A stretch of DNA of 64,000 bases from an uncultured virus (IMG/VR IMGVR_UViG_3300026551_000002). Its lineage: Duplodnaviria; Heunggongvirae; Uroviricota; Caudoviricetes. This document shows positions 4,281-56,717 of the stretch, one piece after another; position 1 is the stretch's first letter, and the number at the start of each line of letters is the position of its first letter. The notes beneath the pieces are model-generated. The model saw only the letters and a list, made by a program, of their open reading frames with translations. It was not told the DNA's origin and made no database searches. Both the position numbers and the translations under genes were made by a program. The stretch lies in IMG/VR virus record IMGVR_UViG_3300026551_000002; one strand, given 5' to 3'.

Positions 4281-4850
4281 ATGAGAAATCATAGAATGAA
4301 TGATGAAGAAAGAGCACAGGTAAAAAATAATTTCCTAGAGGCATATGCTGCAACTGGGAATATTTTGCTGTCATGTAAATCTGCTGGTATTAATCGAAGT
4401 ACGTTTTATGACTGGCAGGAGAAGGATGAGGAATTTAGTCTTAGATGGCATCAGGCGGAGCGGGATTTTGCTGATGTTATCCTGGCTGAATTTGTGCAAC
4501 GCGCTGTACATGGATACGAGAAGCCTGTGATTTCAATGGGCAGAGTGGTGTATGAGGATGTGCCGGTGCTTGATCAGCATGGCAATCAGGTTGTCAATGA
4601 TCTTGGTCGGCCACTCTTTGATAAGAAGCCGCTTATGGAGCGTGTGGTTTCTGACTCTTTGCTTGCACTTGCCATTAAAAAACATCATCCTGAATATCGT
4701 GAAAAACAGCAAATAGATACAACAGTTACAAATGTTAATGCAACTATGCAACAATTGCACGAAGCAATAGAAAAATCTTTAGCTCCATTTCCAGAAGCTC
4801 GTATAGCATTAGCAGAAGCGATATTAGGGGTAAATAATGGAAAAAGATGA
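4281..4850 (+). CDS. terS: Terminase small subunit
   Basis: N-terminal HTH (FLEAYAATGNI..SCKSAGINRSTFYDW), SDSLL and HPEYRE motifs; lies upstream of TerL. Confidence 0.8.
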   Translation: MRNHRMNDEERAQVKNNFLEAYAATGNILLSCKSAGINRSTFYDWQEKDEEFSLRWHQAERDFADVILAEFVQRAVHGYEKPVISMGRVVYEDVPVLDQHGNQVVNDLGRPLFDKKPLMERVVSDSLLALAIKKHHPEYREKQQIDTTVTNVNATMQQLHEAIEKSLAPFPEARIALAEAILGVNNGKR

Positions 4851-5091
4851 AATAATGCGGTATTTTCCTGTTGGCAGGAGAGTCTATTGTGATTATATGG
4901 AAGGAGAGCCATCCTATCGTTTTCGTAAAGTATTTGGGCAAGTGGAAGAGATTAGAGATTCTATTTTATGTGTGAGATCGGAAGAAGTTCCAAATACTAT
5001 GCTTGATTATGACTTTCTTTTAATTCATTTGAGTATTCATTCTCCTGTTATGCCTACTGAAATGGCTGTTGAATATGAACAGTCTAAATAG
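4837..5091 (+). CDS. Hypothetical protein between terS and terL
   Basis: ORF overlapping both neighbours. Confidence 0.55.
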   Translation: MEKDEIMRYFPVGRRVYCDYMEGEPSYRFRKVFGQVEEIRDSILCVRSEEVPNTMLDYDFLLIHLSIHSPVMPTEMAVEYEQSK

Positions 5092-5821
5092 TCTCGCGTA
5101 TCGGCTTGATCCGGTACAGATGGCACGTCAAGTAGGCCTAGAACTTGATCCTTGGCAGGCGAAGCTTGCTCGTAGTCAAGCGCCTCGTATTTTACTTAAT
5201 TGCTCCAGGCAATCAGGTAAGAGCACAACGGTAGCAGTTATTGCAGATTGGACAGCGTTTTATCAGGATGAGTCACCAATCTTGTTGCTCTCTCCATCGC
5301 TTAGACAGTCTAGTGAGCTTTTTCGTAAATGTTTGGATGTGTACCGAGCACTTGATAGACCAGTAGCACCGGATGCTGAGAATAAGTTGTCGCTAGAACT
5401 TGAGAATGGATCTCGAATTGTTAGTCTTCCAGGGAAGGAAGGAACAACACGTGGCTTTTCTGGAGTCAAGTTGCTCATCATTGATGAAGCTTCACAAGTA
5501 CCAGATGAACTGTACATGTCAGTACGTCCAATGCTAGCAGTTTCAGGTGGACGTTTGATAGTGCTTAGCAGTCCTTTTGGAGCAAGAGGATTTTTTTACG
5601 AAGCATATAAGAATAGGCAAGATTGGGAATATTATGAAGTACCAGCTACAGAGTGTCCTAGAATATCACCTCAGTTTTTATCAGAGGAAAAGAAGAATAT
5701 AGGTGAATTCTGGTACGAGCAAGAATATATGTGTAAGTTCTTGGATAGTCAAACAGCAGCATTCAGAAGTGAAGATATTCAACAAATAGTAAAACATGAT
5801 CTTTCGGTGTGGGATATATGA
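5069..5821 (+). CDS. terL: Terminase large subunit, ATPase domain (split gene, part 1)
   Basis: LDPWQ, Walker A SRQSGKST, Walker B LLIIDEA, SSP coupling motif, QEYMCKF. Confidence 0.9.
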   Translation: MNMNSLNSLAYRLDPVQMARQVGLELDPWQAKLARSQAPRILLNCSRQSGKSTTVAVIADWTAFYQDESPILLLSPSLRQSSELFRKCLDVYRALDRPVAPDAENKLSLELENGSRIVSLPGKEGTTRGFSGVKLLIIDEASQVPDELYMSVRPMLAVSGGRLIVLSSPFGARGFFYEAYKNRQDWEYYEVPATECPRISPQFLSEEKKNIGEFWYEQEYMCKFLDSQTAAFRSEDIQQIVKHDLSVWDI

Positions 5822-6594
5822 TAGTTGCACAAGAGATAAAAATTGAAGAGTTATTGCCAGTTAATATTGGAATAGATATTGGACAAATTCATGATCCTAC
5901 AGCAATATGTGTAACTGAGGTTGATCAAGTTCCTACGGGTGAGGTTCGATATGGAAGGGAGCAAACGATAGGCTATCATGATGATCACGGCAATTGGATA
6001 CCTCCAAAGGGTATTGAGAATATTATGGTATCTGAATATATGGTACGGTTTATTAAAAGATTGCCACTTAATACAAGTTATCATGATGTAGCTGAATATA
6101 TTTCAAATATGCTAAAGAATGATTTATTTCAAAATAGAAAAGTACGTGTTTTAATTGATGTTACTGGAGTTGGTCGTCCAGTATATGATAATTTAAAACG
6201 CAAGATATTTATACGATTAAATAATGCTGAAGTAACTCACATGAGCGTTGGTATTCAGTTCAAGATGTCAAGCAATCATATGCTTCAGCTTAAGCCTATT
6301 AGCTTTGTACATGGAGAGATTTATAATCGGGGCAAGGGTACACTAGGGAAAGCGTTTTTGGTGTCTCATTTGCAGTCAATACTCCAGGAGAAACGTTTTC
6401 ACGCGCCTGATATTCCAGAAGTGAAAGCAATGTGTGATGAATTGCTGGTGTATGAGATTAAAATCACTGACAATGGGAAAGATACGTATGGAGCAAAAAT
6501 AGGTAAGCATGATGATTTAGCAACGGCTGCTGCTCTTGCTTGTTTGGAAGATCCATACAGTGATAAAGTACGATATAGTGAAAAGGTGTATTAG
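5818..6594 (+). CDS. terL: Terminase large subunit, RNase H-like nuclease domain (split gene, part 2)
   Basis: IGIDIGQIHDPTA, DVTGVGRPV, GKHDDLATA; ATGA overlap with part 1. Confidence 0.88.
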   Translation: MIVAQEIKIEELLPVNIGIDIGQIHDPTAICVTEVDQVPTGEVRYGREQTIGYHDDHGNWIPPKGIENIMVSEYMVRFIKRLPLNTSYHDVAEYISNMLKNDLFQNRKVRVLIDVTGVGRPVYDNLKRKIFIRLNNAEVTHMSVGIQFKMSSNHMLQLKPISFVHGEIYNRGKGTLGKAFLVSHLQSILQEKRFHAPDIPEVKAMCDELLVYEIKITDNGKDTYGAKIGKHDDLATAAALACLEDPYSDKVRYSEKVY

Positions 6595-7367
6595 ATGGAA
6601 GAACATATAGATGTTGATGAATTTATGGCATATGTTCGTGAGCAAGGGTTTGAGATACAAGACAATTTATTTACACGTGGCATTAGGACGTTTGTTATTT
6701 CAGGTGGAGGACTTCCTAAAGATGGTGATGTGCATTTTGATATAACGAGAGAAGAATGGAATAAACTTACATTAGAAGATTTGATACAGCAGGTAAATTC
6801 TTTGAGATATATGGTAGATGAAAGGAATGATAAGGCAAGATGGACATAGAGCTTTCAGATGTAAAAATGCTCCCATCAGGAGATTTTGAAAAGCTTGATA
6901 AGCGTGAGAAGGAAGCATTTCATGCATTGCAAGAGGAAATGATTGCATTGCTCGTAAACAAAAGCAATCATTTTAAGCTTCAGTATCCAGGATTGAGGAT
7001 TGAGTGGCGTTTCCAGGCAGAAGTGTATCAAAGTATTGTAAATGGTCCTAGTAGCGTTCGTTATTCAGATAGGGTGTATTAGATGCCAAAGAAGAGAATA
7101 GTATTTGAAGGGTACATGACAGTAGAGGGTTTTCATATAGGACTTCAAGATGTTGATTTTGAAGGTCACAATTCTAAGAAAGTAGCTCTTACTCTTCCTC
7201 CTGGATTTATGGATCAACTTTTTGAGAAGTGGCAAAAATTTAAGAGTGGAACAAGTGAAGAGTATCTTTTGATAGCGAGGAATTATTTTGATGATCATCC
7301 CGATATGGATTGGGTAAAATATTTAGCAATGGAAGATAATCGTTTACACGGGAATAAAGGAGAGTAA
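6595..7367 (+). other. Three small hypothetical ORFs: 6595-6849, 6840-7082, 7083-7367
   Basis: Coupled ORFs without recognisable motifs. Confidence 0.55.
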
Positions 7368-7370
7368 ATA

Positions 7371-7675
7371 ATGTACATCAATGGTATTCAGTGTGATACA
7401 TGCTGCAAGATAGAAATATGACACCTAGAGAATTGAAGCGCATAGAGGGAAATGGTGCTTTTCCAGATGATTGGATTGTGGCTAAGCAAGGAGGAGAGAG
7501 TGAGATGCATTTTTGCTCTTTTCATTGTCTCCATGAGTGGGTAGAGAAGCAAATGGAGGTTAAGCCTATGAGTGAAATGTTTCCTGATGCTTTTAAAAGT
7601 ATTGATCCTAATATGGCAATTGAACCTATTGAAGTAGATCGTGAGGCAGTTAATGAGTACTGGAGGGATTTATGA
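7371..7675 (+). pseudogene. Frameshifted CxxC...FCSxxC zinc-binding protein
   Basis: MYINGIQCDTC (7371) and ...HFCSFHCL are in different frames; paralog of the next gene. Confidence 0.55.
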
Positions 7676-7935
7676 GAATAGATGGATTTAAATGTGATCA
7701 ATGCAATAATATATGCAATAAAAGTAAGATAAAAGGATGGATTATTGTATATAGTTATAAATCAAATAATGAGCGTGATGAGATGAGTTTTTGTTCTTTG
7801 GAATGCCTCATCAATTGGACATCTCAGCAGTCGGTTGATATGAGGAAAATTGATGTGGAAGGGCCTATTGAAGGCGTTGTTATGAGTGTAGAAAAGCATC
7901 AGGGGCGTCTTCTTGCCAAGGGGAAAAATAGCTAA
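7672..7935 (+). CDS. Small CxxC...FCSxxC zinc-binding protein
   Basis: MRIDGFKCDQC...FCSLECL. Confidence 0.65.
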   Translation: MRIDGFKCDQCNNICNKSKIKGWIIVYSYKSNNERDEMSFCSLECLINWTSQQSVDMRKIDVEGPIEGVVMSVEKHQGRLLAKGKNS

Positions 7936-8096
7936 TGAACACACTCCAAGCGCCACCTAGCACACAACTGAAAGTAGGTAAACTGGCTTTTGGAGCGGGT
8001 TTATGGTATAATGAGGTCACAAAATTGTTGAGTCTCAGGAGTATTAGAGCACTCCTGAGACATGCATCTAGTTCGTGCTTAAGGAGACTAGACACA

Positions 8097-8981
8097 ATGG
8101 ATACTATATCATCATATCCTCAAAATGACAATCCCTCAAAGCAGTGTACAGGCCCATGTGGGCGTTTTCTTTCTGCCACTTCTGAGTATTTTCATCGTGA
8201 TAAGAAAGCTAAATATGGATTAAGATCTAATTGCAAGCAGTGTTGTAGTACTTCTAAGCGCTCTGTATCCCCTAATGGGCAAAAAATATGTACAGGTCCT
8301 TGTGGGCGTATGCTCCCTGCTACTTCCGAATTTTTTTATGCACGTAATCAATCTAAAGATGGATTTCAACATAAATGCAAAGAATGTGTTTCAGAGTATT
8401 ATGTTCAAAATAGAGATCAAATATTGGCTAATAATAAGGCTCATAATGATAAGCCTGAAAACAAAAAGCGTAGATCAGAATATGAGAAAAAGCGTCGATA
8501 CAATCCAGAAACGAGAGATGATTTTTTAGCAATGAAAAGATCCCATTGGCATAAACCTGCTCATAAACAACGCTTAAAAGAGTATTATAGTCGGCCGGAA
8601 GTGAAAGAAAGTAAACGGTTAAATGATAGAAAGCGTTATCATGATCCAGTGATAGGTGATTATGTACGTAAACAAAAGCGTGTGCGTACTCTTAGTTATA
8701 TTGCGCGTAAAAAATCTGTTAAAGGTACTCATACCCCACAACAAATTCAAGATCAACTAAAACGACAAAAACATACATGTTATTATTGTCAGAAAAAATT
8801 CAATAAAATTAAAGGTCAATCACAATATCATATTGATCACACTTTTCCTCTGAGTCGTGTAAAAGGTACTGATATTCCTGCCAATAGTATTGATTATATC
8901 GTGTTAGCTTGTCCTACATGCAATATGAGTAAACATGATAAATTTCCATGGGAATGGCCGGAAGGAGGAAGATTACTTTGA
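8097..8981 (+). CDS. HNH endonuclease 1 (two CTGPCG zinc ribbons, helical repeat array, HNH)
   Basis: CYYC...HIDH...N...CPTCN; AAGGAG RBS before ATG 8097; own TGGTATAAT -10 near 8004. Confidence 0.9.
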   Translation: MDTISSYPQNDNPSKQCTGPCGRFLSATSEYFHRDKKAKYGLRSNCKQCCSTSKRSVSPNGQKICTGPCGRMLPATSEFFYARNQSKDGFQHKCKECVSEYYVQNRDQILANNKAHNDKPENKKRRSEYEKKRRYNPETRDDFLAMKRSHWHKPAHKQRLKEYYSRPEVKESKRLNDRKRYHDPVIGDYVRKQKRVRTLSYIARKKSVKGTHTPQQIQDQLKRQKHTCYYCQKKFNKIKGQSQYHIDHTFPLSRVKGTDIPANSIDYIVLACPTCNMSKHDKFPWEWPEGGRLL

Positions 8982-10204
8982 ATACTTTAGCTCCTGTAGG
9001 AGTCCAGCCAATTTATGAAATTACTGATGAGGATAGGAAGAGACAGAAGAGAGTTGAAAACGCTTGGAAGGCTTACGAAGGTGACTTTAAGAAACCATTT
9101 GATAAAATGCCGGATGAACCCGATATGAATATTATATCTAATCGTGTAGTTGAATTTGTTAATGCCAGCAATGATTTTTTATTTGCAAAAGAGCTTCAAA
9201 TCACATGTGACGAAGGTTCTCCTGCTAATGCTCAACAATTTATTGATGACACGTGGGGACGTAAGGAAACTAGAATTCCATTCTTGCTTAGATTAGGACT
9301 GAATGGAGCAATGGCGGGCTCTGCATTCTTGCGTATTGTTCCAGGTCGTAAGAAAGGCAAGTTTCGGCTTGTTGAGATAGACCCTTGTATTATCAATGTC
9401 AAAACAGCGCCTCAAGATTGCTTGACTGTTTTGCTCTACTGCATAGAATATGGCATCGATGGGAAGGATGCCAATGGCAAACCAAATAGAACGTATTATC
9501 GTGAAGAGATTTCTCGCATAGATCCAACAGAAGAGGATCCTTTTGGCTATGAGGATATGGATGCAGACGGCTTGGATAGCGATGTCACTTGGAGCATTCA
9601 GCATTGGACACAACAAATATCATCGGGCATGGCTCCGAAAAGTGGAGATTGGATACCAGCAGGAGAGCCATATATTTGGCCCTATCCTTTTTCGCCTATT
9701 TTCAGTTGTCAAAATCTTCCACGTCCAAATAGTTTCTGGGGATATCCTGATGTGATGCCATCTGTTATCGAACTTAACGACTCATTAAATCTTGTGCAAT
9801 CAAGTATTAATATTGAACGGAAGATCAGGCGATTGCTTGTTGGGCGTGGTATGGGTGAAGGAACGATTCGTGCTGAACCTGGAAAGATTTTACAGACGCC
9901 ACTTCCTGAGCAAATGATTGAAGCAGTTCAGGTTGCCTCAACTACAGCAGATGATATTGCCTTTGCAGCAAATTTACGATCTGATATTGATGAAGAAGTT
10001 TCTATTCCAGGTGTTGCAACCGGAAGGATTGATCTCTTGCCTCGCGGTATCACTGGTATTGCAATCGAACTTTTGTATGGACCAGCACTCAAGAAGACAG
10101 ACAAGAAGAGATGTACATACGGTGAAATGATCATAGATGTATCCAAAGCGCTGTTGGTTCTTAATAATATGCAAGCATCAGTAAGCGAAGGCGATGCAGT
10201 ATGA
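8978..10204 (+). CDS. Portal protein, SPP1 gp6-like, N-terminal part
   Basis: AWKAYEG, NRVVEFVN..FLF, NLPRPNSFWGYPD, TGIAIELLYGP; TTG start overlaps the HNH stop, with GGAGG RBS. Confidence 0.85.
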   Translation: MNTLAPVGVQPIYEITDEDRKRQKRVENAWKAYEGDFKKPFDKMPDEPDMNIISNRVVEFVNASNDFLFAKELQITCDEGSPANAQQFIDDTWGRKETRIPFLLRLGLNGAMAGSAFLRIVPGRKKGKFRLVEIDPCIINVKTAPQDCLTVLLYCIEYGIDGKDANGKPNRTYYREEISRIDPTEEDPFGYEDMDADGLDSDVTWSIQHWTQQISSGMAPKSGDWIPAGEPYIWPYPFSPIFSCQNLPRPNSFWGYPDVMPSVIELNDSLNLVQSSINIERKIRRLLVGRGMGEGTIRAEPGKILQTPLPEQMIEAVQVASTTADDIAFAANLRSDIDEEVSIPGVATGRIDLLPRGITGIAIELLYGPALKKTDKKRCTYGEMIIDVSKALLVLNNMQASVSEGDAV

Positions 10205-10663
10205 GAAAAATGCATTGTGAGCATTGTAATTTAACCATGCTTCAATGGGCATGGGGACAATTGAGCCCGATATGGTTTTTTACAAGAAGTAGAGATTTCT
10301 GTCAAGGATGGTCTACTTGGAAGTTTTATACTTATCTTCCAAGAGCTACGTTTATCTTCTATCGCAATATTATACCGTATGTATTGAGAGAGTTGATAGT
10401 GCAGCATGAGCAATAGAGATACACAATTTCAGAATTTTGCAAATGCGCTATATATGGAGTGTGTAGGTATTTATCAAGATGCATCGATTCGTGGGCGTGT
10501 TGACACTGAGCAACTTGTTATACGACATATAACGCGTAGGGCATATGATTTTGCCGTTCATGTTCTTGAGAATACTGACATAGTTGATCTTGATAGATTG
10601 CCCTCTGATGAGCATGTAGAGCGTATTCCAGACATGACTGAATTGGAGTCCAATCATGAGTGA
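10201..10663 (+). other. Two small ORFs (10201-10416, 10406-10663) lying inside the split portal gene
   Basis: Coupled ORFs between the two portal halves. Confidence 0.65.
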
Positions 10664-10973
10664 TGGAATAGAAGTAACGCTTAGTTGGGAGTCACCACTT
10701 CCCGTCGATGATTTACCAACAGTACAAGCATACGTGTTGCTTAAAAGCCTTGGTATATCGAATGACTCTATCATGCGCAAGCTTGGCTATGATCCTGAAG
10801 AGGAAATGAAGAAGTCAGCAGAGGAGGATGCTCAGGCAATGGCAAATAATCCTTTAGCTCAGCAGTTGCCACCTACAGAACCGGGAGTTGCAGGACTCCC
10901 AGGACAACCACCTGGAACGCAATCAACCCCCTTGCAAGGGGGAAATCAACAACAGAATGGAGGGCAACAATAG
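10656..10973 (+). CDS. Portal protein, C-terminal part
   Basis: IEVTLSWESPLPVD...GISNDSIMRKLGYDPEEE is the typical SPP1-like portal C-terminus. Confidence 0.8.
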   Translation: MSDGIEVTLSWESPLPVDDLPTVQAYVLLKSLGISNDSIMRKLGYDPEEEMKKSAEEDAQAMANNPLAQQLPPTEPGVAGLPGQPPGTQSTPLQGGNQQQNGGQQ

Positions 10974-10974
10974 C

Positions 10975-11265
10975 ATGGCAACAATTCCTAATCTCGCACA
11001 GCAACCTGGAGATCAGCAAGGTTTTCAACCTTCACTGAATGCAACTGTGCAAACAGCACAAGGTTGTGTGCATTTCAGTATGCAGACTGATCCTCTGACA
11101 ATCAAGACAACTATTGTTCCTGATCAACTGATGATTCAGGTGATTGCAATTTGGTTGAAAGAGCATCCAAATGAAGCTGCTCAAATTATTCGAGCTGTGA
11201 AAGATAATCATCGTCAAGAGATGGATATCATCAGGACAGTTGAATCTAGTAAGAATAGAGGGTGA
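10975..11265 (+). CDS. Hypothetical protein
   Basis: ATG directly after the portal stop. Confidence 0.55.
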   Translation: MATIPNLAQQPGDQQGFQPSLNATVQTAQGCVHFSMQTDPLTIKTTIVPDQLMIQVIAIWLKEHPNEAAQIIRAVKDNHRQEMDIIRTVESSKNRG

Positions 11266-11269
11266 CATT

Positions 11270-11527
11270 ATGCCTAGAGGAGGAGTTCGAGGACATCATA
11301 ATTATCCGAAAGGACGAGCTAGCAAAGGTAAAGCTGTAGTTGCTCCTTTGGCTCCTGCTATGAATCCAATGGTTGCTCCTGCTCCCAAGCCAACGAAGTC
11401 AAAAGGAGTTGGCAGGGGTCATGGCGCTCATCATCATGGAGCAGTGCCAAAGGCTCATCATTCTCATCCTGGTGCGCATCATCCTCGTCCTGGTGCTCAC
11501 CATCCACACAAGAAGAAGGTGAAATAA
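11270..11527 (+). CDS. Basic His/Gly/Pro-rich small protein
   Basis: GAHH repeats, Lys-rich end, no acidic residues. Confidence 0.65.
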   Translation: MPRGGVRGHHNYPKGRASKGKAVVAPLAPAMNPMVAPAPKPTKSKGVGRGHGAHHHGAVPKAHHSHPGAHHPRPGAHHPHKKKVK

Positions 11528-11703
11528 TGTCTAAAGCTCATCCCGGGTTTTCCAAGGTTGCATCTGGAATTGCGAGAAAGCAAGGCATCTCGAAAGGCGC
11601 TGCTTCTGCTATCTTGGCTTCTAGTACACGTAAAGCTTCTCCAGCAGCCAAGCGGAAAAATCCTAGGCTAAATCGTGTAGCAAAAGCAAAGAAAGGCAAA
11701 TAG
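11527..11703 (+). CDS. Small basic Lys/Ala-rich protein (58 aa, not in ORF track)
   Basis: MSKAHPGFSKVASGIARKQGISKGAASAILASSTRKASPAAKRKNPRLNRV; TAATG coupling. Confidence 0.7.
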   Translation: MSKAHPGFSKVASGIARKQGISKGAASAILASSTRKASPAAKRKNPRLNRVAKAKKGK

Positions 11704-11706
11704 AAC

Positions 11707-12605
11707 ATGGCAAAAAATGATGATACTGTACAAGTACCTGCAATAAGGCCTGTGAAAGTTGAGCCACAACCGGAGCCAACTTTTGTAGAGAAGCTTGAAG
11801 CTTTGATGAACCATGCAGTGCAGCAATCTATCCCTGCCAAAGGAGAGCAAGCTACAGAGCATCACCATCATTATGCACAAGTGGCGAATGCTCTTGGTGA
11901 TTTATGGCGCGAGGTGAAATCTCATGTCAGATGAATTGGTAGACTTCAAAGTTGAGCGGCCTGATTGTCATCATATGCAGACAATCTTTGCACGACCTCA
12001 GCAATCTATTGCAGACTACAATGCACGTCTTGTACCTGAACTTCGAGAGGCTATTCAAAAGCCTTGCGAACAGTGTGCAGAGGAGAAAGCAAAGCTAGCA
12101 AAGCAAAAACTTGATCAGGATTTGAGGGCAAAGAAATGAATGTAAAGTATACAGAAAGCCTTGAAACAAGAGTAGAAAAGCTTGAAAAGGCTTTAAAGGG
12201 TAAGGTTTCATCTGGCAAGACAATCACGGTAGAAAGAGATTTCTTTGAGCATTTATTGAATTGTATGGCAAATCAAAAGTACTTGCCTACGTTGGGCGCT
12301 TCTAATCATATGTCAGAAAGAGAAAAGGAACATCAAAAGGTAATTGATACTGCATATCACAAGGCTAGGGAGTTGCTATCCCCCATGCAAGGGGAGGAGC
12401 CAAAATGACACCTGAAGATCTTGCCAAGCTTTTATTTGAGATTGGTCATCAAGTGGCATCGAATGTGGATGGTGTTGAGTTTTTGATTATTTGGGAGCAA
12501 ATGCCTGAAGAGGCGAAAGCTTTCAAAATTGCAGTAGCAACAGAGTTTCTAAATCGATATGTGTTTGTTCCTGTAGATAAATTTGATGTATCAATGTTAC
12601 GTTGA
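11707..12605 (+). other. Four small hypothetical ORFs
   Basis: Coupled ORFs 11707-11934, 11924-12139, 12136-12408, 12405-12605. Confidence 0.55.
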
Positions 12606-19523: not shown

Positions 19524-21692
19524 TTGCCAGTACTAGCGACCATGGTAGTTGAATATGTAGCAGAAACATCAGGATTAGGCAATGCTGTAACAGCACTTGC
19601 TGCTCTTGGCGTTGCTGCTGCTGGTGTTGCTGCTGTATCTGTCAAGATGGCTGGTGATTTTGAGCAAGGAGTAACGAGATTAAAAACAGGCGCGGGTGAT
19701 GTCACTGACAACATGGCAACAATGGGCAAGGGTATTCTCGCAACATCTGTTGCTACGGGAGTACTTACCAATGGAGCTGAGGGTCTTAATTCTGCTATGT
19801 ATCTCATTATTTCATCTGGTCAACGTGGGGGACAAGCTCTTGATACGTTAAAAGTTGCATCCGAAGGTGCTCAAATTGAACAAGCAAATGTAGTGGAGGT
19901 GGCAAATACACTCAGTGGAGTAATGACTAACTATGGGACAAAAACATTTAATGCTACGCAATATATGAATGGACTTATTACTGCTGTACAGCAAGGTAAA
20001 ATTACGCTGGAGGACCTGGCAGTTTCTATGGGGCCTGTTGATCCAATTGCTCAATCTCTAGGAATTTCCTTTAATGATATGGCAGCAGCTATGACGACAC
20101 AAACGAATGCTATGATACCTGCTGCTCGTGCTGCAACTGGATTGCGTTTTATGATGATGGCACTTGAAAATCCTACAGGCAAGGCCAAAGATGAGATGAA
20201 GTTATTAGGGTTGAATAGTGTTGCCGTTGCCGATGAAATGAAAGTGAGTCTTCCAGGCGCATTGCAGATGATAGCTGATGCAGCAAAGAAAGTGGGACCG
20301 GAGGGAAGTGTGCCATTTAACAGAGCTGTTGCAGATATGGTAGGAGGTTTGCGGTCACTTTCGACATTTTCAGCGTTGACGGGCGATCATATGAAAGATT
20401 TTACAAAGAATTCGGCTCTTATTCTTGATGCTATGCAGAAAAATAAGAATGCTGTACTTGGATGGGAGACGGCGCAATCAAACTTCAATATTAAAATGGA
20501 TCAAGCAAAAGCTGCTGTAGCATCTGTAGCTATTCAGCTAGGAACATTGTTACTTCCTGCACTTGGCAATCTACTCACTGCAATAACACCTCTTATTGTT
20601 GCCTTTGGCAGTTGGGTTACATCAGGAAAAGCTGCCCACGACATCATGGATAAGCTGAAGCCAATTATTGATTATCTTAAGCCAAAATTTGAAGCATTAG
20701 GGACTGCACTCCAGCATCTAGGACAAGTTCTCTTGCCACTCATTTCTAATACAACATTTTGGCATATCGCTTTAACTATTCTTACTGTTGCTATTGGGCT
20801 TGTTACCGATGCTCTTACTCTTGTGATTAATATTGTTACAAGTGTTGTTCAATGGTTTGAAAAGAATAAATTAGCTGCCGATGCTCTAAAAGCTGTCCTT
20901 TTAGCTGCTGCCTTTGTTATTGGGGTTCCTCTTGTTATTGCGTTTGGCGCTTGGGCGGTTGCTGCTCTTGCTGCTGGTGCTGCAACTCTTTTTGCTATGT
21001 GGCCTGTTTTGTTAGCAATCGGAATTATTGCACTTATCATCCTGGCTATTATGCACTGGGGGGATATTATGAACTGGATAGGGTGGTTGATAGGAACGGT
21101 TTGTCATGCGATAGGAGATTTCTTTACATGGCTATTCCATTTTTTGATAGGGGGATCAGTTATTCCAGATATTGTAAATGGTGCAATATCGTGGTTTACA
21201 AATCTTTTAAATAGTATTGGTAACATATTTAACAATATAGTAAGTACAATTAAAAATGTATGGAATACTATTGTAAGTGATGCATTAAGTGCAGGTGCCA
21301 ATATTTGTAAAGCTATTGGAACGGGAATAACAAATGCTATTCATTTTGTCACTGATGCTGTCACAAACGTGACTTCTTGGATATCTGCACATCTCCCCCA
21401 CTCTCCTGCTAAAGTTGGACCTCTTGTGGGTCTTCAACAACAAGGTACTGAGATTAGTAACCAGATTGCCCAGGGAATGCTTGCAGGTACACCACTGCTT
21501 ACAGGTGCTATGAATAACCTCACGAAGCCCATTTCACTAGGATTGAAAGGTACAGCAACCACAGGCACCCCCCTGCAAGGGGGGAATCATGGTGATACGT
21601 ACATCACCATCACTCTTGATGGAAAAGACATCACCAATAGCACAATGAAGCGTGTTCAGAAAGAGTTGAGAGGACATGGTTTGAAAAAATGA
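19524..21692 (+). CDS. Tape measure protein (TP901-like core)
   Basis: Ala-rich helical; AATGLRFMM..LENPT; W/F-periodic repeats; PHSPAKVGPL. Confidence 0.9.
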   Translation: MPVLATMVVEYVAETSGLGNAVTALAALGVAAAGVAAVSVKMAGDFEQGVTRLKTGAGDVTDNMATMGKGILATSVATGVLTNGAEGLNSAMYLIISSGQRGGQALDTLKVASEGAQIEQANVVEVANTLSGVMTNYGTKTFNATQYMNGLITAVQQGKITLEDLAVSMGPVDPIAQSLGISFNDMAAAMTTQTNAMIPAARAATGLRFMMMALENPTGKAKDEMKLLGLNSVAVADEMKVSLPGALQMIADAAKKVGPEGSVPFNRAVADMVGGLRSLSTFSALTGDHMKDFTKNSALILDAMQKNKNAVLGWETAQSNFNIKMDQAKAAVASVAIQLGTLLLPALGNLLTAITPLIVAFGSWVTSGKAAHDIMDKLKPIIDYLKPKFEALGTALQHLGQVLLPLISNTTFWHIALTILTVAIGLVTDALTLVINIVTSVVQWFEKNKLAADALKAVLLAAAFVIGVPLVIAFGAWAVAALAAGAATLFAMWPVLLAIGIIALIILAIMHWGDIMNWIGWLIGTVCHAIGDFFTWLFHFLIGGSVIPDIVNGAISWFTNLLNSIGNIFNNIVSTIKNVWNTIVSDALSAGANICKAIGTGITNAIHFVTDAVTNVTSWISAHLPHSPAKVGPLVGLQQQGTEISNQIAQGMLAGTPLLTGAMNNLTKPISLGLKGTATTGTPLQGGNHGDTYITITLDGKDITNSTMKRVQKELRGHGLKK

Positions 21693-24600
21693 GTGTCCTC
21701 ACTTTTACAATTCAAATAGTTGGTGTAACGTATGATATTAAAGAAGGATCATTTGATTTTAATCCGCAAGTAGAACAACGTTCAAAACTTACATTTACTG
21801 TTCTTGATCCTACCAATGTCTTTAGTTTTCAAAAAGGTCAACAAGTCACACTCACAGACTCAGCATCAACTATTAAATTTACAGGAACAGTCAGTACTGC
21901 TTTACGGTATAGGATAGGAACTGGAACTATGATGCATCACGATATTGTTTGTGATGATATGCATCAAGCAGCAGATGAGAGAACAACCAATAAAATATAT
22001 ATAAATCAAAATGCAGGTGTGATCGTTGCAGGAATGGTAAATGATACAATATCATCAGAAGGGGTAACAGCAAATTATGCTATAAGAGAAGATAATACAC
22101 AAGTAGAATTTAGCCAGGGTACACTAAATGGATTAGTTGCAACAATCAATCTTGGAGGTGATCTTGAACTTGCTTCTGCTGGTAGTCAGGTGACAATTTT
22201 TGAAAATACAGGCTCTATCTTTGGGCAAGGAACACTTGTTAATTGTCAAGTTTCAGGAAATACTCTTATTCCTATTCCCACTCCTACTATCAAATTTGTT
22301 GGTACTGAGAGTCTTACGCAAGATGGAAATGCTTATGCTTATATTGAAATACTTTCATCAGGAAGTATAGGCATTATTTCAGGCAGATACCTTGAATATG
22401 ATATCTGGATTGATCCGAAATCGCCTGAAATAAAGTCTGGTGTTGATATTATTTGTACTGATGGTACGACGCTTAGAGACTCCGTAGGCGGGAATCCATA
22501 TCCTTACGGGGACGATCAGAATATACCACCTCATCCGAAGTATGACCAGCAAGGATATGCAGATGGAAAGTGGAGACATCGGAAGTTCTTGCTTGATAAT
22601 TTAAGTGGGAAAACTATTTCGCATGTGGATGTAGTGTTTGAAGGAGATAAGGGCGGTACGTATACAACGTATATTAAAAACATCTATGAAACTGATGGAA
22701 CATCAGTTGTTAATACATTCTTTAATGGGACATTTAACGTTAATCCTCCACGACAATTGCAAAATTCAGGTTATTCTAATGTTTCAATTTCTATTGTGAA
22801 TACCTATGATTGTTATTCACTTTCTCAGCGTGTAAGTCCCTCATACAGTATAGATGCTGCAAAGATCATCCGAAATTCTTTTCTGAATTGGATAGCAACA
22901 AATCCAGCAGGAACAAACACATTAATGGAATATAGCATTGATGGTGGTAACTCATACATTACGTGCACCAATAATGCTGCATTGCCTTCATTGCTTGCTG
23001 GCTTGTCTGTTGCTGGTTTTTCCATTCAGTTCAGGCAAACATTTCAGCAAACATCAGGCGCGTCTCCTGAGACTCCACCAGTTCTCAGCTTTATGGAAGC
23101 AGTTATTAATCCATCGTATACAGCAACAAAATCAGATGTGAAATTATCAGCTTCAACAACTGGAGAGTGGAATGCAGGAACCCTCACCAATACACAGGTA
23201 AATAATGGTGTCCTGTCATTGCTTGGAGCAGTACGCAATTGGAGTGGTGCTGATCTCAGTGGAATGACCATTTTTGGCAATAAAGGTACAGGTCCAGGTA
23301 CAAATCTTAATCAACACGTGAACTATAAATCTTTCTGGATTGGGATGGGGATTAGTATTGAAGGTCGTTCTCGGCTTGATTTTCTTGGTTCGTGGCAAGA
23401 CTTTTTGCTTGAAGTTGATCTCTATTTAGATGTTAGCTTTGGGATAAACGGCATTGTATACCGCACTACTGGCTGGTCGAATTGGGATTCTGATTATGCT
23501 TATGCAGTGCAAGCTATACAAGGCAATCCAGGTAGCGTTTCACTTCAAAAAGGATCAAATACATCAGCTTCATCAGATGGGACACGAACACAAATTGTCA
23601 TTGCCAGTGTTCCAATTGCCACTGGTGGATGGCATAGATTAAAAGTATTAGTTGTTGGATCTAATCATAAAATATATATTGATGACGTTCTTTATATTAA
23701 TCAAAATGACTCAACATATACGGCAGCGGGAAATATAGGACTACGAACATCAAATGTAAGTTCAAGCGCAGGCTATCAGGGGCAATTTAATAATCTTGGT
23801 GTAACTGTAACAGGATTATCAGGGACGTGGGTATCTGCAAGCACAAGCTTGACGAGCGTGGGGACATATGGCAATTCTGTTGTCACGTGGAAAGATGTCT
23901 CAATTAATCCTCAATCCACCACTATTCTTGTTGAGAGTACTGTTAATGGAGGAAGTACATGGCAAACGTGTACAAACGGTGGTCCTATTCCAAATTTAAC
24001 TGCTGGTCAATCCCTTAGTGGTGTTAATCTACAGCTTAGAGTGACACTCTCAACACAATCGGCTGCTATTATGCCTCAAATTCAATATTTAGTGTGTCGT
24101 GTTCTAGGACAGTTCAATAGTACAGGGACAAGAATAGCCCCTGTACTATCCTTGGCACCTGCTCTTATTTGTGGGAGTGCAACGGCCTCCTGGAATGTGG
24201 TTACTCCACCAAACACATCATTTGCACTTGCCACTTCACTAGATAACATCACCTACTCAGGTATCTTTGGTTTACTTGGTGTTGTTATCTCTGGCCTTGT
24301 AACACAACCTTTACCAATTCTTGATACGTTTGCAACCAATGACTCTCCTGCTTATGCACATCTTGCCAGGACTGGAGGATCAGCATCCACTTGGACATGG
24401 GATACTGCCAATTCAAGAGTTACTGCTTCAGGTGGTAGCAACGATATGCAGTTGTATACTGGTGTCTGGTTTAATACTGGTTATCAAGTGAAGAAACAGA
24501 TAATTATCGATCATACTAAAGTCGTTGGAGGTGCAGATCTTTCAAATTATCCTCTATTGGTTTCTTTCATTGATCCCAATCTCGTTATTCCCAGTGGTTT

Positions 24601-26944
24601 TGTTCAGAATGTGAATGGATTTGATATTATCTTTGTAAGTGCAGATGAAACAACACAATTAAATCATGAAATAGAAAATTATAATGCATCTACTGGTGAA
24701 ATAGAAATGTATGTGTTAATACCAACACTATCCCATACCGTAGATACCATAATTTGGATATATTTCTGTAATCCTGGTATATCAACAACTCAAGAGCATG
24801 TAACTGCTGTATGGGATAGCAATTATAAAGCTGTCTGGCATATGGATGAGGCTACTGGAGCAAACCAAAGTGACTCAACTTCTAATGCTGTAACAGCTAC
24901 ACAGCACAACTCCCCCTTGCAAGGGGCTGGTCAAATTGATGGAAGTCTTACGTTTGATGGATTAACACAATATCTTAGTGTAGCGCATGGGGCTGTAACA
25001 GATATTATAGGTGATAAGACGGTTGAGGTATGGGTAAACACAGATTCTTTTGCGCTTGATGCTAATGGTTCTGATCCAAGGATATTAATCAATAATATTG
25101 ATGGTACCAATGTCTATCAATTTGTGTTGGATGCTGCTGGAGGAGGGACAATTGCTTTTGCTGTGAATGACTCAACAGGACAGCATATTATAAGCAATCA
25201 AACATGGCCTACTGGTAATTGGCTTATGTTGCAAGGTACATATACGGCATCCACTCATGCGGTAACACTTGATGTTAATGGAGTGACAGTTCCCAATAAT
25301 GGAAGTCTTTCTCTATCAATAGGTACATCTTCTCTTTTTAATATTGGAAGACGTACTGATGGATTTGGATATTATCTTGGTTTGGAAGATGAAATACGAA
25401 TATCAAATAGCGTGCGAACTGCTGGTTGGAGAACAACATCTTTTAACAATCAAAGTTCTCCCTCTACATTTCTCTCCCTTGGAGCACTTACATTTCAACC
25501 AACAACTTCTACCAAAGATGGTGATTGGATTTTTGACACTGATCAAGTCGATTGCGGAGGGATTGTCTGGAGACAGACAGACGCTAGCAATTTCTACGAG
25601 CTTGATATCTTTGATGCATCCTCCAGTGCAGGATCAACCAATGCTTTGAAATTATATAAGGTTGTGGCAAATGTCAAGACTCAGATCGGCGCTACAATTG
25701 CTATCACGTTTGTACGAGGTGTAGCATACCGCGCTCGGGTGACAATGGTAGGCACTGCCATCACTATCTGGTTTGATGGATCTATTGTTTTGACTGCAAC
25801 TGATAGTGCTCTAGCTGGTCCTGGCAAGTCTGGCATGATCAATGTTTCTGGCAATGCCCATTTTTATAACTTCAGAATGCAGCCTCTTGGGCAATCTCTC
25901 GCAGGCGTCAACCTTTATAGCAAAGTCACATTAACTTCAACAGATCCAACAGTCACGCCTCAATTAACAGATTTAACGCTTGTAGCACTTCATCCCAATA
26001 TTGCACTTGGTCCAATTATTCCAACGGTCAACTATAAAAGAACCTACCTCTCAGCAAATATGGATGATATAGCCAAGAAAGCCAATTGGACATGGCAAAT
26101 CGATCCTAATCTTAATATGTTGGCTGGTCCTAGAATTGCCATTCCTGCTCCTTGGATACTTACATCAAAGGATGTGCTCTATCCAGACGATGGGAGCGCG
26201 TCGCTTTCAGTTGAGAATTCAGGAGATCTCTATAGAAATAGGGAGATCTTAACAGGTGTATTAGCAACAATGGCAATGAGTGAGAAACATCCAGGTGATG
26301 GAAAATCAACTTCCTGGACACTCAAGTTTCCTGTAGTTGGACAAACCCCGACAATTTTTCTCAATGGAGAAGTAAAAACCATCGGTCAAAAAGGTATCGA
26401 TATAGGGAAAGATTTCTATTATGCCCTTGGTAGCACGTCGCTTGCTCAAGATTCATCAGGGACAATTCTCCAGTCTAATATTGATAGTTTCACCATTAGC
26501 TACACAGGCCAATTCACAACGGAGGTTGTGCGTAACAACACCGGTCAATTTCCAGGTACGACTTCACAGACACAGTACGCGGCTCTCACAGGCGGCTCAG
26601 GCATTGTTGAGAATGTTGAAGACATAACAGCCATGCAGCTTGATGTACCCTCTGCAAATGCCTATGGAGATGGGTTGCTTCAAAAGAATGGGGTGATTGG
26701 TCGCACACTTATCTTTAAAACCAATCGCACGGGACTCTCAGTAGGTCAATATATTGCCGTGTTCATTCCTGAGCATAAATTAAACGACGCGGCTATGCTC
26801 ATCACAAATATGGATCTTCATCCAGAAATAACCCTTGTAGGCAATCAAGCATCGATGCTCTACTACTGGCAAATAACGTGTGTAGAGGGACCATCACTTG
26901 GTTCTTGGCAAAAGACATTAGTGCAAGCTTTAAATGGGAGTTGA
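21689..26944 (+). CDS. Large baseplate/tail-tip protein with inserted lectin-like (concanavalin/LamG, DUF2341-like) domains
   Basis: 1751 aa after TMP; WHRLKVLVVG..G.IGL, DIIFVSADETTQLNHEIE, AVWHMDE, DEIRISN. Confidence 0.82.
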   Translation: MSVLTFTIQIVGVTYDIKEGSFDFNPQVEQRSKLTFTVLDPTNVFSFQKGQQVTLTDSASTIKFTGTVSTALRYRIGTGTMMHHDIVCDDMHQAADERTTNKIYINQNAGVIVAGMVNDTISSEGVTANYAIREDNTQVEFSQGTLNGLVATINLGGDLELASAGSQVTIFENTGSIFGQGTLVNCQVSGNTLIPIPTPTIKFVGTESLTQDGNAYAYIEILSSGSIGIISGRYLEYDIWIDPKSPEIKSGVDIICTDGTTLRDSVGGNPYPYGDDQNIPPHPKYDQQGYADGKWRHRKFLLDNLSGKTISHVDVVFEGDKGGTYTTYIKNIYETDGTSVVNTFFNGTFNVNPPRQLQNSGYSNVSISIVNTYDCYSLSQRVSPSYSIDAAKIIRNSFLNWIATNPAGTNTLMEYSIDGGNSYITCTNNAALPSLLAGLSVAGFSIQFRQTFQQTSGASPETPPVLSFMEAVINPSYTATKSDVKLSASTTGEWNAGTLTNTQVNNGVLSLLGAVRNWSGADLSGMTIFGNKGTGPGTNLNQHVNYKSFWIGMGISIEGRSRLDFLGSWQDFLLEVDLYLDVSFGINGIVYRTTGWSNWDSDYAYAVQAIQGNPGSVSLQKGSNTSASSDGTRTQIVIASVPIATGGWHRLKVLVVGSNHKIYIDDVLYINQNDSTYTAAGNIGLRTSNVSSSAGYQGQFNNLGVTVTGLSGTWVSASTSLTSVGTYGNSVVTWKDVSINPQSTTILVESTVNGGSTWQTCTNGGPIPNLTAGQSLSGVNLQLRVTLSTQSAAIMPQIQYLVCRVLGQFNSTGTRIAPVLSLAPALICGSATASWNVVTPPNTSFALATSLDNITYSGIFGLLGVVISGLVTQPLPILDTFATNDSPAYAHLARTGGSASTWTWDTANSRVTASGGSNDMQLYTGVWFNTGYQVKKQIIIDHTKVVGGADLSNYPLLVSFIDPNLVIPSGFVQNVNGFDIIFVSADETTQLNHEIENYNASTGEIEMYVLIPTLSHTVDTIIWIYFCNPGISTTQEHVTAVWDSNYKAVWHMDEATGANQSDSTSNAVTATQHNSPLQGAGQIDGSLTFDGLTQYLSVAHGAVTDIIGDKTVEVWVNTDSFALDANGSDPRILINNIDGTNVYQFVLDAAGGGTIAFAVNDSTGQHIISNQTWPTGNWLMLQGTYTASTHAVTLDVNGVTVPNNGSLSLSIGTSSLFNIGRRTDGFGYYLGLEDEIRISNSVRTAGWRTTSFNNQSSPSTFLSLGALTFQPTTSTKDGDWIFDTDQVDCGGIVWRQTDASNFYELDIFDASSSAGSTNALKLYKVVANVKTQIGATIAITFVRGVAYRARVTMVGTAITIWFDGSIVLTATDSALAGPGKSGMINVSGNAHFYNFRMQPLGQSLAGVNLYSKVTLTSTDPTVTPQLTDLTLVALHPNIALGPIIPTVNYKRTYLSANMDDIAKKANWTWQIDPNLNMLAGPRIAIPAPWILTSKDVLYPDDGSASLSVENSGDLYRNREILTGVLATMAMSEKHPGDGKSTSWTLKFPVVGQTPTIFLNGEVKTIGQKGIDIGKDFYYALGSTSLAQDSSGTILQSNIDSFTISYTGQFTTEVVRNNTGQFPGTTSQTQYAALTGGSGIVENVEDITAMQLDVPSANAYGDGLLQKNGVIGRTLIFKTNRTGLSVGQYIAVFIPEHKLNDAAMLITNMDLHPEITLVGNQASMLYYWQITCVEGPSLGSWQKTLVQALNGS

Positions 26945-55657: not shown

Positions 55658-55850
55658 TTTACCGGAGCCAATAAAACATCAGTCAAGGGACCTGGAAGGA
55701 GACGGGTCCCTTTTTGTTGCCATCAAAGTTACACAAGGTATTCCCCTCGCAAGGTGGTATGCAAACTATCCTATACCGTTGACAACTGAACAATAATATT
55801 CTAAAATGTTCGATACTATTTACAGCTTCCAACGAACAAGGGATAGAGCC

Positions 55851-56717
55851 ATGACTGAAGACATTCCAATGAAGAAATGCACAGGACCATGTGGGCAAGA
55901 GTATCCTGCTACTTCTGAGTACTTCAACTCTGATAAAAACGGAAAATATAAACTAAAAGCTAGATGTAGAGAATGTTTAAGTACTTACAGCAAAGAACGT
56001 AACAAACGTCCAGAAATAAAACTAAGAGCACAAGAACGTGAAAAAATACGCACAAGACAATATAAAAGCAATTTAGAGCGCAGATCAAAACAAGCTGCAC
56101 GTAAAAAAGAACGTTACCATAACGATACAGAATATCGAACACGAAAACTTGCCATAGATAAAGCTTATCATAATCGTCCTGAAGTGAAAGAACGAAAACA
56201 TGCTTATAATCAAGAATATGGCAAAGAATACCGCAAACGCCCAGAAGCACGAGAAAAACGTCGAACTAGAGACAATGCAAGAAACCATCGTCCAGATATA
56301 CGCGCAAAAAGATTAATCAAATTTCAAGAATACCGTAACCGTCCAGAAATACAAGAACGCAGACGTGCCTACAAAAAATATTACAACAAACGCCCAGAAG
56401 TACAATTAATGAGCCGTACTTATAATCATACCAAACGTGCCCTTAACAGATCAGTCAAAGGTACCCATACCCATGAACAAATCCAAGAAAAGCTTAAAAA
56501 GCAAAAGCACAAGTGCTACTACTGCAAAGCTCGACTTAGAAAAATCAAAGGTAGATACATTTACCACATTGAACACACCTTCCCACTCAGCCGCGTAGTA
56601 GGGACCGATATACCAGCCAATAGCATTGACTACCTCGTGCTCTCATGCCCTACTTGCAACCTCAGTAAAGGCGATAAGTTCCCTTGGGAATGGGCAGAAG
56701 GTGGAAGACTCTTATAA
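55851..56717 (+). CDS. HNH endonuclease 2 (CTGPCG ribbon, repeat array, HNH)
   Basis: CYYC, HIEH, CPTCN, ends FPWEWAEGGRLL. Confidence 0.9.
   Translation: MTEDIPMKKCTGPCGQEYPATSEYFNSDKNGKYKLKARCRECLSTYSKERNKRPEIKLRAQEREKIRTRQYKSNLERRSKQAARKKERYHNDTEYRTRKLAIDKAYHNRPEVKERKHAYNQEYGKEYRKRPEAREKRRTRDNARNHRPDIRAKRLIKFQEYRNRPEIQERRRAYKKYYNKRPEVQLMSRTYNHTKRALNRSVKGTHTHEQIQEKLKKQKHKCYYCKARLRKIKGRYIYHIEHTFPLSRVVGTDIPANSIDYLVLSCPTCNLSKGDKFPWEWAEGGRLL

What the first reader, a model, noticed from the sequence alone, without database searches (positions are those of the whole stretch)
10150..10973. Portal gene split in two with two unrelated ORFs in the gap
Seen: portal similarity ends at ...KALLVLNNM (ATG 10169), followed by a 10-aa tail. 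The missing C-terminus resumes at ATG 10656 (MSDGIEVTLSWESPLP...) with its own GGAG RBS. Joining the two ATGs gives a seamless LVLNNM-SDGIEV. The 487-nt gap holds two coupled ORFs, with no intron, intein or transposase hallmarks that I can see. Established: portals are normally single polypeptides. Inference: a two-piece portal with a separately translated C-terminal domain, or an unrecognised excision, splicing or bypass event.
Basis: partly seen in the sequence, partly recalled or inferred. Interest (0 to 1): 0.78.

Follow-up and report, generated by a model that had tools for sequence, protein, structure and literature searches.

The report
Phage portal made from two genes
In a group of soil phages the portal, the ring through which DNA enters and leaves the head and normally a single protein chain, is encoded as two separate conserved genes that most likely snap together as proteins, while the gap between them has become a slot for small swappable genes.

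Summary
Confirmed and conserved. The SPP1-like portal is encoded as an N gene (8978-10204) and a C gene (10656-10973). Eight other distinct arrangements with both pieces on DNA break at the same Met, with 16-665 nt spacers holding 0-2 different ORFs; close relatives (66-76%) are whole. Each C gene has its own GGAG ribosome site (9 of 9), both pieces are under purifying selection, and spacer ORFs also occur at other gene boundaries, so the gap is an ordinary cargo slot. No intron, bypass or excision signature was found. The break falls in a loop; the C chain carries the last wing beta-strand plus the crown, and a complex model docks that strand back into the wing (0.66 vs control 0.00; may pass by likeness to solved portals). 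Best reading: a two-chain portal made by separate translation (0.82); not shown by protein or RNA data. Precedents exist for other phage proteins (phiRIO-1 tail tube B, Aeh1 NrdA). Six literature searches found no two-chain portal. This scan noted two-gene portals before, in other (podophage/SU10-type) portal families on other DNA; this one is in a different family.

The parts
8978..10204 (+). Portal N gene (408 aa from TTG 8978; longest ORF starts 8948): wing, stem, clip, tunnel loop and long wing helix, then a 10-residue tail that carries the ribosome site for the next ORF
   Evidence: PF05133 4-164, E 1.9e-6; phrog_64; 15 N-only proteins among the best 120 hits; start at 8978 fits relatives' N-termini and has GGAGG upstream
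10169..10171 (+). Break point: Met398, in the loop between the long wing helix and the last wing beta-strand
   Evidence: Model of whole relative P0011: helix 368-395, strand 404-408, Met at 398; same Met in all split relatives
10201..10416 (+). Spacer ORF A (71 aa), no relative found; flanked by an 11-nt near-repeat at 10195-10205 and 10400-10410; may be a recent or decayed cargo gene
   Evidence: No Pfam/PHROG match, no tblastn match in loci, no Atlas hit; repeat read
10406..10663 (+). Spacer ORF B (85 aa), member of a small accessory gene family of this phage group; its last codons carry the GGAG for the C gene
   Evidence: Family alignment; 19 loci: 4 in split spacers, 6 downstream of whole portals, 9 with no portal match in the locus
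10656..10973 (+). Portal C gene (105 aa): last wing beta-strand, three crown helices, Pro/Gln-rich tail
   Evidence: PF05133 357-413, phrog_104 415-505; 21 of 23 stand-alone homologues start 3-6 residues before the strand; pN/pS 0.11-0.31; complex model
10645..10648 (+). Shine-Dalgarno GGAG of the C gene
   Evidence: Sequence; duplex energy -5.9 kcal/mol here, -5.9 to -10.6 in 9 of 9 arrangements

Best explanation
The portal gene underwent fission in an ancestor of this soil siphophage group. The N and C genes are translated as separate polypeptides from one late transcript, each from its own ribosome site and chained by start/stop overlaps. The ~105-aa C chain rebuilds a normal portal subunit non-covalently: its first strand (residues 5-16) slots in as the missing strand of the wing beta-sheet and packs on the long wing helix of the N chain, leaving the three crown helices in their usual place. 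Once split, the seam became an ordinary gene boundary at which small accessory ORFs are gained, lost and swapped, probably by recombination at short repeats around start codons. Shown: the two-gene layout, its conservation, ribosome sites, selection, ORF turnover. Inferred: separate translation, strand complementation, 12+12 assembly, the insertion mechanism.
For: Same break in 9 distinct arrangements with ATG-to-start distances 16, 224, 373, 405, 407, 413, 487, 506, 665 nt, in all three frames. Shine-Dalgarno pairing -5.9 to -10.6 kcal/mol before 9 of 9 C starts, against +0.8 to -5.4 before the N-part Met of the same loci and +1.3 to -5.2 before the internal Met of 17 whole portals. pN/pS 0.10-0.30 (N) and 0.11-0.31 (C core) at pS 0.26-0.84 over 12 of the 36 possible pairs. 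C-piece N-termini drift in length (3 of 21 match whole portals) although whole portals keep this loop at one length in 97 of 102. L004 has only a 16-nt insert made of GGAG plus ATG overlapping the stop. Spacer ORFs occur at other boundaries: an L016 spacer ORF is 79% identical to window 4837-5091 between the terminase genes; an L001/L009 spacer ORF lies behind the portal in L002, L015 and whole-portal L005; ORF B family lies behind whole portals in 6 of 19 loci. Break in a surface loop; complex score 0.66, best control 0.00, mark reached by 116 of 157 solved and 2 of 215 mismatched pairs, runs agree in at least 77% of contacts, partner pLDDT at least 69 (halves of a split gene tend to pass by likeness to solved portals). 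Only one portal match in G000 in an otherwise complete head-tail gene set. Precedent: phiRIO-1 tail tube B runs as two polypeptides on SDS-PAGE (PMC4819975, section read).
Against: No protein or RNA evidence; all phages are uncultured. Whole portals are nested among split ones in the best tree, so rejoined or recombined forms exist (a single split clade is not rejected, p-AU 0.099). A GGAG before the C start would also come along passively with any cargo ORF's 3' end. In L012 the contig ends before any C gene is seen. The N-chain tail is partly conserved, which could mean a role I did not find.
Confidence: 0.82

Rival explanations
1. The N chain alone works as a crownless portal (as phi29-type portals lack a crown) and the C chain is an accessory or sub-stoichiometric add-on, or has moved to another job.
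For: phi29 and Andhra portals lack the crown (PMC10541612, PMC4493910, passages). Separate genes allow unequal amounts.
Against: The C gene is kept in 8 of 8 other arrangements where the DNA reaches far enough, with pN/pS as low as the N gene and its wing strand motif nearly invariant; the N chain alone lacks a wing sheet strand. Split and whole C parts are intermingled in a short tree, up to 94% identical over 62 residues.
Confidence: 0.08
2. The pieces are rejoined at the RNA or ribosome level (unrecognised self-splicing intron, ribosomal bypass between matched ATG codons, or a frameshift in the short version), giving a normal single chain.
For: In the window and 3 of 8 other arrangements an ATG-to-ATG join gives the whole-portal spacing; matched take-off and landing codons are a bypass feature (10.1101/2022.08.31.505936, abstract and outline); Jug phage genes including portals are fragmented by group I introns (PMC12880540, passages).
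Against: No Rfam intron: 2 sub-threshold hits, E 0.18 and 1.8. Spacer fold z -1.44. Junction-to-junction pairing z -1.35 to +1.24 in 8 of 9 arrangements (L004 too short). Spacers share no sequence end to end, vary 16-665 nt in all frames, and the same join would add or remove residues in 5 of 9. No cut within the 3-nt ATG repeat gives both an exon ending in U and an intron ending in G (sequence; group I rule recalled). No stop follows the take-off codon directly.
Confidence: 0.06
3. The spacer is a DNA element that is excised (programmed or occasional) to restore a whole portal gene; nested whole portals are the excised state.
For: Whole portals P0011, P0014, P0015, P0018 fall among split ones in the best tree (UFBoot 64-86) and have the ancestral junction.
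Against: No joint in contigs of 4 of 4 runs (contigs drop rare variants, so this shows no more than the main form). No recombinase or conserved terminal repeat in any of 9 spacers; only a 3-nt ATG repeat. Recombination with whole relatives explains the nesting as well, and one split clade is not rejected.
Confidence: 0.02
4. Defective phage or assembly artefact.
For: Metagenome assembly; no cultured member.
Against: Same break in 9 distinct arrangements with synonymous sites near saturation and both pieces conserved; 15 N-only and 21 C-only protein clusters; single-contig cover at depth 42-45.
Confidence: 0.02

Closest known systems
Single-chain SPP1 gp6-like portals (Pfam PF05133; SPP1 gp6 7z4w/2jes, S. 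aureus 80alpha/SaPI1 portal 8vd8/8v8b)
   Same: Fold and domain order: model of whole relative P0011 matches 8vd8 at Z 26.8, rmsd 3.5, 334 aligned and 7z4w at Z 26.3, rmsd 5.0, 387 aligned; gene position between terminase and scaffold/capsid genes.
   Different: Encoded as two genes; break about 14 residues before the crown start (model 415 aligns to 80alpha 435; crown starts at 432 in PMC10541612, passages).
Pseudoalteromonas phage phiRIO-1 tubular tail protein B split into gp44 and gp40 (PMC4819975, section 7 read)
   Same: Essential virion ring protein split into two genes, other genes in the gap, no intron, two polypeptides.
   Different: Tail protein of a podophage, shown by SDS-PAGE in one phage; here a portal, conserved over a clade with a variable gap, not yet shown at protein level.
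Aeromonas phage Aeh1 NrdA split by mobE (PMC3045599, abstract and outline)
   Same: Gene fission rescued by non-covalent assembly; new short tails at the break.
   Different: Enzyme; homing endonuclease in the gap; tails essential. Here no endonuclease in any of 9 spacers, the N tail is 5-10 residues, variable and outside the predicted interface.
Intron- or endonuclease-fragmented portal and terminase genes of Jug jumbo phages (PMC12880540, passages)
   Same: Portal coding region in pieces.
   Different: There group I introns and splicing are reported for many breaks; none detected here. Their supplementary table on portals was not read.
Split large terminases (separate ATPase and nuclease genes; phrog_7579 and phrog_27743 lengths fit such halves)
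   Same: The same phage family has this split too, and its seam also takes cargo.
   Different: A cut between two self-folding domains; the portal cut lies inside the wing domain.

Membership tests
SPP1-like portal (PF05133) | Sequence match to the family | tested here: met
   N ORF 27.5 bits over cut-off 25.5; C ORF 18.2 bits, under the cut-off, at positions 357-413
SPP1-like portal (PF05133) | Wing-stem-clip-crown fold | tested here: met
   On whole relative P0011 (pLDDT 83): Foldseek E 1e-15 to 1e-13, VIA Z 26 to 80alpha and SPP1 portals
SPP1-like portal (PF05133) | One polypeptide chain | tested here: not met
   At gene level two ORFs in different frames, 487 nt apart; protein level not testable
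SPP1-like portal (PF05133) | Dodecameric ring at the head vertex | not testable with these tools
   Only a 1:1 pair was modelled
Genes in pieces assembled as separate polypeptides (Aeh1 NrdA, phiRIO-1 tube B) | Each piece has its own start and ribosome site and is conserved | tested here: met
   9 of 9 GGAG sites; pN/pS 0.10-0.31
Genes in pieces assembled as separate polypeptides (Aeh1 NrdA, phiRIO-1 tube B) | Two polypeptides seen and shown to assemble | not testable with these tools
   Prediction only
Genes in pieces assembled as separate polypeptides (Aeh1 NrdA, phiRIO-1 tube B) | Aeh1 type: homing endonuclease in the gap and essential tails | tested here: not met
   Window spacer ORFs match no Pfam/PHROG family; all 9 spacers hold ORFs of at most 128 aa or none; tail shrinks to 5-6 residues in L011 and L004
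Group I / group II intron | Catalytic RNA core and conserved splice boundaries | tested here: not met
   Rfam none over threshold; fold z -1.44; 16-nt spacer in L004
T4 gene 60-type translational bypass | Matched codons, stop or rare codon right after take-off, short conserved structured gap | tested here: not met
   Matched ATG only; 5-10 sense codons follow it; gap 16-665 nt and unrelated between phages
Split intein (protein trans-splicing) | Intein N and C halves on the two pieces (Cys/Ser start, His-Asn end) | tested here: not met
   Added sequence is 5-10 residues on the N chain and 0-2 on the C chain; no intein Pfam match

The most novel reading that the evidence does not exclude
The crown has become a detachable, separately supplied subunit: the N chain is an incomplete fold until the C chain donates its wing strand, so portal maturation, crown occupancy (fewer than 12 of 12) or its timing can be tuned through the cargo ORFs that set translational coupling. 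Because this family has split both terminase and portal, the two monomers that Avs sensors recognise (PMC12642450, passages), fission may also shorten the life of the recognisable monomer and so blunt Avs4-type detection.
Probability: 0.12. Interest if true: 0.85.

Novelty: new variant of a known kind. Interest (0 to 1): 0.62.

Why it matters
The portal is a hallmark, essential, normally single-chain protein of all tailed phages. A natural, long-lived cut inside its wing domain shows that the crown can be supplied in trans by strand complementation. That gives a ready tool to test what the crown does (headful sensing, DNA retention, ring size), since it can be left out, titrated or swapped without touching the channel, and it marks a tolerated site for tags. 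It also warns that short portal calls in metagenomes are not always broken genes, and shows how essential genes turn into cargo slots without introns or inteins.

Tried and rejected
Intron: Rfam, folding, junction pairing: nothing. Joined DNA form: none in contigs of 4 runs; no RNA holder listed, so expression was not tested. ORF B as a dedicated partner of the split: rejected, absent from 4 of 9 spacers and present behind whole portals. Function of ORFs A and B: no family. Promoter or terminator in the gap: 10 promoter-like sites in 7800-11400 against 9.7 by chance, no + strand terminator. Second independent split in this family: a profile search gave 132 proteins, some short; 13 of 13 loci related to P0150 were whole, none found for P0170; the cluster look-up for these could not be made, so they stay unresolved (likely contig-edge calls). 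Named host: none with the N protein; two whole portals at 52-53% in a Ktedonobacterales MAG, a lead only. Cultured phages: 1 of 50,697 records, 28% identity. One origin of the split: neither shown nor rejected (5000 replicates, constrained tree by fast search). Literature: searches found no two-chain portal; search 57 no paper on split terminases; 90 nothing on these phages; passages of PMC3322345, PMC11878797, PMC10028833, PMC3118219, PMC5567305 held no such case. Supplements were not read (portal table of PMC12880540, split-gene table of PMC11878797 may bear on novelty), and most subscription journals are not in the library.

Full report
Observation. The portal reading frame runs to a stop at 10204, ten residues after the Met at 10169. 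Two ORFs follow, 10201-10416 and 10406-10663, and then 10656-10973, each start overlapping the previous stop. The first ORF matches the start of portal profiles (PF05133 4-164, E 1.9e-6) and the last matches their end (PF05133 357-413 of 416, E 0.0013; phrog_104 415-505 of 550, E 1.1e-6); the two middle ORFs match nothing in Pfam or PHROGs. The likely start of the N gene is TTG 8978, which fits relatives and follows GGAGG. The window is most of a siphophage-like genome with terminase, scaffold, capsid, connector, tail, tape-measure, lysis and replication genes, and G000 holds one portal match only. One contig piece spans 8900-11300 without a difference in 2 of 4 runs, three pieces cover it in the other two, and no joint was listed; these runs may be the source of the window and are not independent.

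The split is a clade feature. Of the best 120 of 310 homologues of the N protein, 15 (the window's included) stop 1-10 residues after the same Met, 102 are whole (470 aa or more) and 3 are other fragments. Six whole ones lie at 66-76% identity and pass straight from that Met into the sequence that starts the C gene. A search with the C protein gave 23 short proteins; 21 begin with a Met 3-6 residues before the conserved Ile and 2 look like fragments. On DNA, 6 of 8 loci were split and 2 whole; of 49 loci found with the C-piece alignment 7 were split and 42 whole. After dropping repeats of the same contig or spacer (L003, L006, L010, L013, L014, L019-L022), loci that do not reach the junction (L017, L018, L023) and L012, whose contig ends 631 nt after the break, 9 distinct arrangements remain, the window included.

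What the 9 arrangements show. The distance from the break Met to the C start is 16, 224, 373, 405, 407, 413, 487, 506 or 665 nt, in all three frames, with 0, 1 or 2 ORFs between. In L004 the insert is 16 nt: a GGAG and an ATG that overlaps the N stop. All 9 C starts have a GGAG site pairing at -5.9 to -10.6 kcal/mol, against +0.8 to -5.4 before the break Met in the same loci and +1.3 to -5.2 before the internal Met of 17 whole portals (17 of the 42 whole loci, those with a Met there that fit my pattern; the anti-SD motif was recalled). Both pieces are conserved: pN/pS 0.10-0.30 for N and 0.11-0.31 for the first 56 codons of C at pS 0.26-0.84, over 12 of 36 pairs, uncorrected. That is what a free N-terminus does, not a splice junction.

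The gap is an ordinary cargo slot. An ORF in the L016 spacer is 79% identical to window 4837-5091, which sits between the terminase genes; the second spacer ORF of L001 and L009 lies behind the portal in L002, L003, L015 and whole-portal L005. The window's ORF B is in the spacer of 5 of 9 arrangements and of L012, and of 19 loci of its family 4 are split spacers, 6 lie behind whole portals and 9 have no portal match nearby. ORF A has no relative in any search and is flanked by an 11-nt near-repeat (10195-10205, 10400-10410); in L012 the ORF after ORF B begins with the same six residues as a C gene and then turns into something else. These hint, by inference, at insertion through short repeats at start codons. 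The large terminase is split into ATPase and nuclease genes in 15 of 15 distinct loci that hold both halves, whole-portal relatives included, and its seam holds an HNH gene in L018 and an ORF in L080.

No sign of rejoining. Rfam gives two sub-threshold hits, the spacer folds no better than shuffles (z -1.44), and the two junctions do not pair (z -1.35 to +1.24 in 8 arrangements). The only repeat at the ends is ATG, and no cut in it meets the group I rule (recalled) of an exon ending in U and an intron ending in G. Added sequence is far too short for a split intein. No RNA run was listed, so this rests on sequence.

Where the cut lies. A model of whole relative P0011 (pLDDT 83, pTM 0.78) has a long helix 368-395, a loop holding Met398, a strand 404-408 and helices 417-428, 433-439, 444-461. 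It matches 80alpha/SaPI1 and SPP1 portals best (Foldseek E 1.2e-15 and 1.2e-13; VIA Z 26.8, rmsd 3.5, 334 aligned, and Z 26.3, rmsd 5.0, 387 aligned). Model residue 415 aligns with 80alpha 435, and that crown starts at 432 (PMC10541612, passages). So the C chain is the last wing strand plus the crown. Folded together, C residues 5-16 lie against N residues 66-81 and 363-393: score 0.66, best control 0.00; the mark was reached by 116 of 157 solved and 2 of 215 mismatched pairs; runs agree in at least 77% of contacts; partner pLDDT at least 69. Halves of a split gene tend to pass by likeness to solved portals, so this shows compatibility, not binding. The N tail is not in the interface, shrinks to 5-6 residues in two arrangements and carries the next ribosome site, so it is probably not an assembly domain of the Aeh1 kind.

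History. In trees of the N part, whole portals P0011, P0014, P0015 and P0018 fall among split ones (UFBoot 64-86), but forcing the 15 split proteins into one clade is not rejected (29 rows, delta lnL 39, p-AU 0.099). C parts of split and whole forms are also intermingled in a 62-residue tree of low power. One fission followed by exchange with whole alleles, or re-fusion, both fit; this result is neutral to mildly awkward for a simple single-origin story.

Comparison. It works like the known genes in pieces: phiRIO-1 tail tube B, two polypeptides with other genes between and no intron (PMC4819975, section 7 read), and Aeh1 NrdA (PMC3045599, abstract and outline). Fragmented portals are mentioned for Jug phages in a setting of group I introns (PMC12880540, passages). 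Six searches found no report of a two-chain portal; supplements were not read and the library lacks most subscription journals. This scan has noted two-gene portals with cargo slots before in podophage/SU10-type families on other DNA (e1-6246045, e1-7981738, e1-3430023; unchecked notes); look-ups by this sequence found no look-alike. If those hold, portal fission has happened more than once.

Verdict. Real, conserved, most likely a two-chain portal built by strand complementation (0.82). A new variant of a known kind; surprising for a hallmark structural protein and directly useful for testing crown function, but unproven at protein level and from uncultured phages with an unknown host. Interest 0.62.

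Noticed in passing
window 7935-8981: An HNH endonuclease ORF begins with the same first ten or so residues as relatives' portals (P0002, P0004), and the portal restarts at 8978 with a similar N-terminus: the HNH cassette seems to sit in the portal's 5' end and supply a new start. A homologous HNH lies between the terminase halves in L018, and related copies occur at window 55806-56714 and 57963-58853.
   Followed up: partly
window 5069-5821 and 5809-6594: Large terminase is encoded as separate ATPase and nuclease genes, as in 15 of 15 distinct related loci with both halves; the seam takes cargo in L018 and L080.
   Followed up: partly
L012 2947-3226: The ORF after the ORF B homologue starts with the same six residues as C genes of relatives and then diverges, as if another gene had been inserted into the start of the C gene; the contig ends before a C gene is seen.
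   Followed up: no
window 6595-7935 and 10975-12605: Long chains of small coupled ORFs lie between terminase and portal and between portal and scaffold, several with Cys pairs, and one His/Lys/Pro-rich basic ORF (11270-11527); no capsid morphogenesis (SPP1 gp7-like) gene was recognised there.
   Followed up: no
G000 contigs C10 and C120: The window's two ends both map to contig C120 and its middle to C10, which suggests a circular phage genome a little over 64 kb binned inside a 1.58-Mb genome; whether it is a prophage of that organism or mis-binned was not tested.
   Followed up: no
P0150, P0170: Short proteins from more distant portal lineages that start just before the same wing strand; could be contig-edge calls or further independent splits. 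All 13 loci related to P0150 were whole.
   Followed up: partly
window 21689-26941: A 1751-aa ORF right after the tape-measure gene has only one weak match to a family of unknown function.
   Followed up: no
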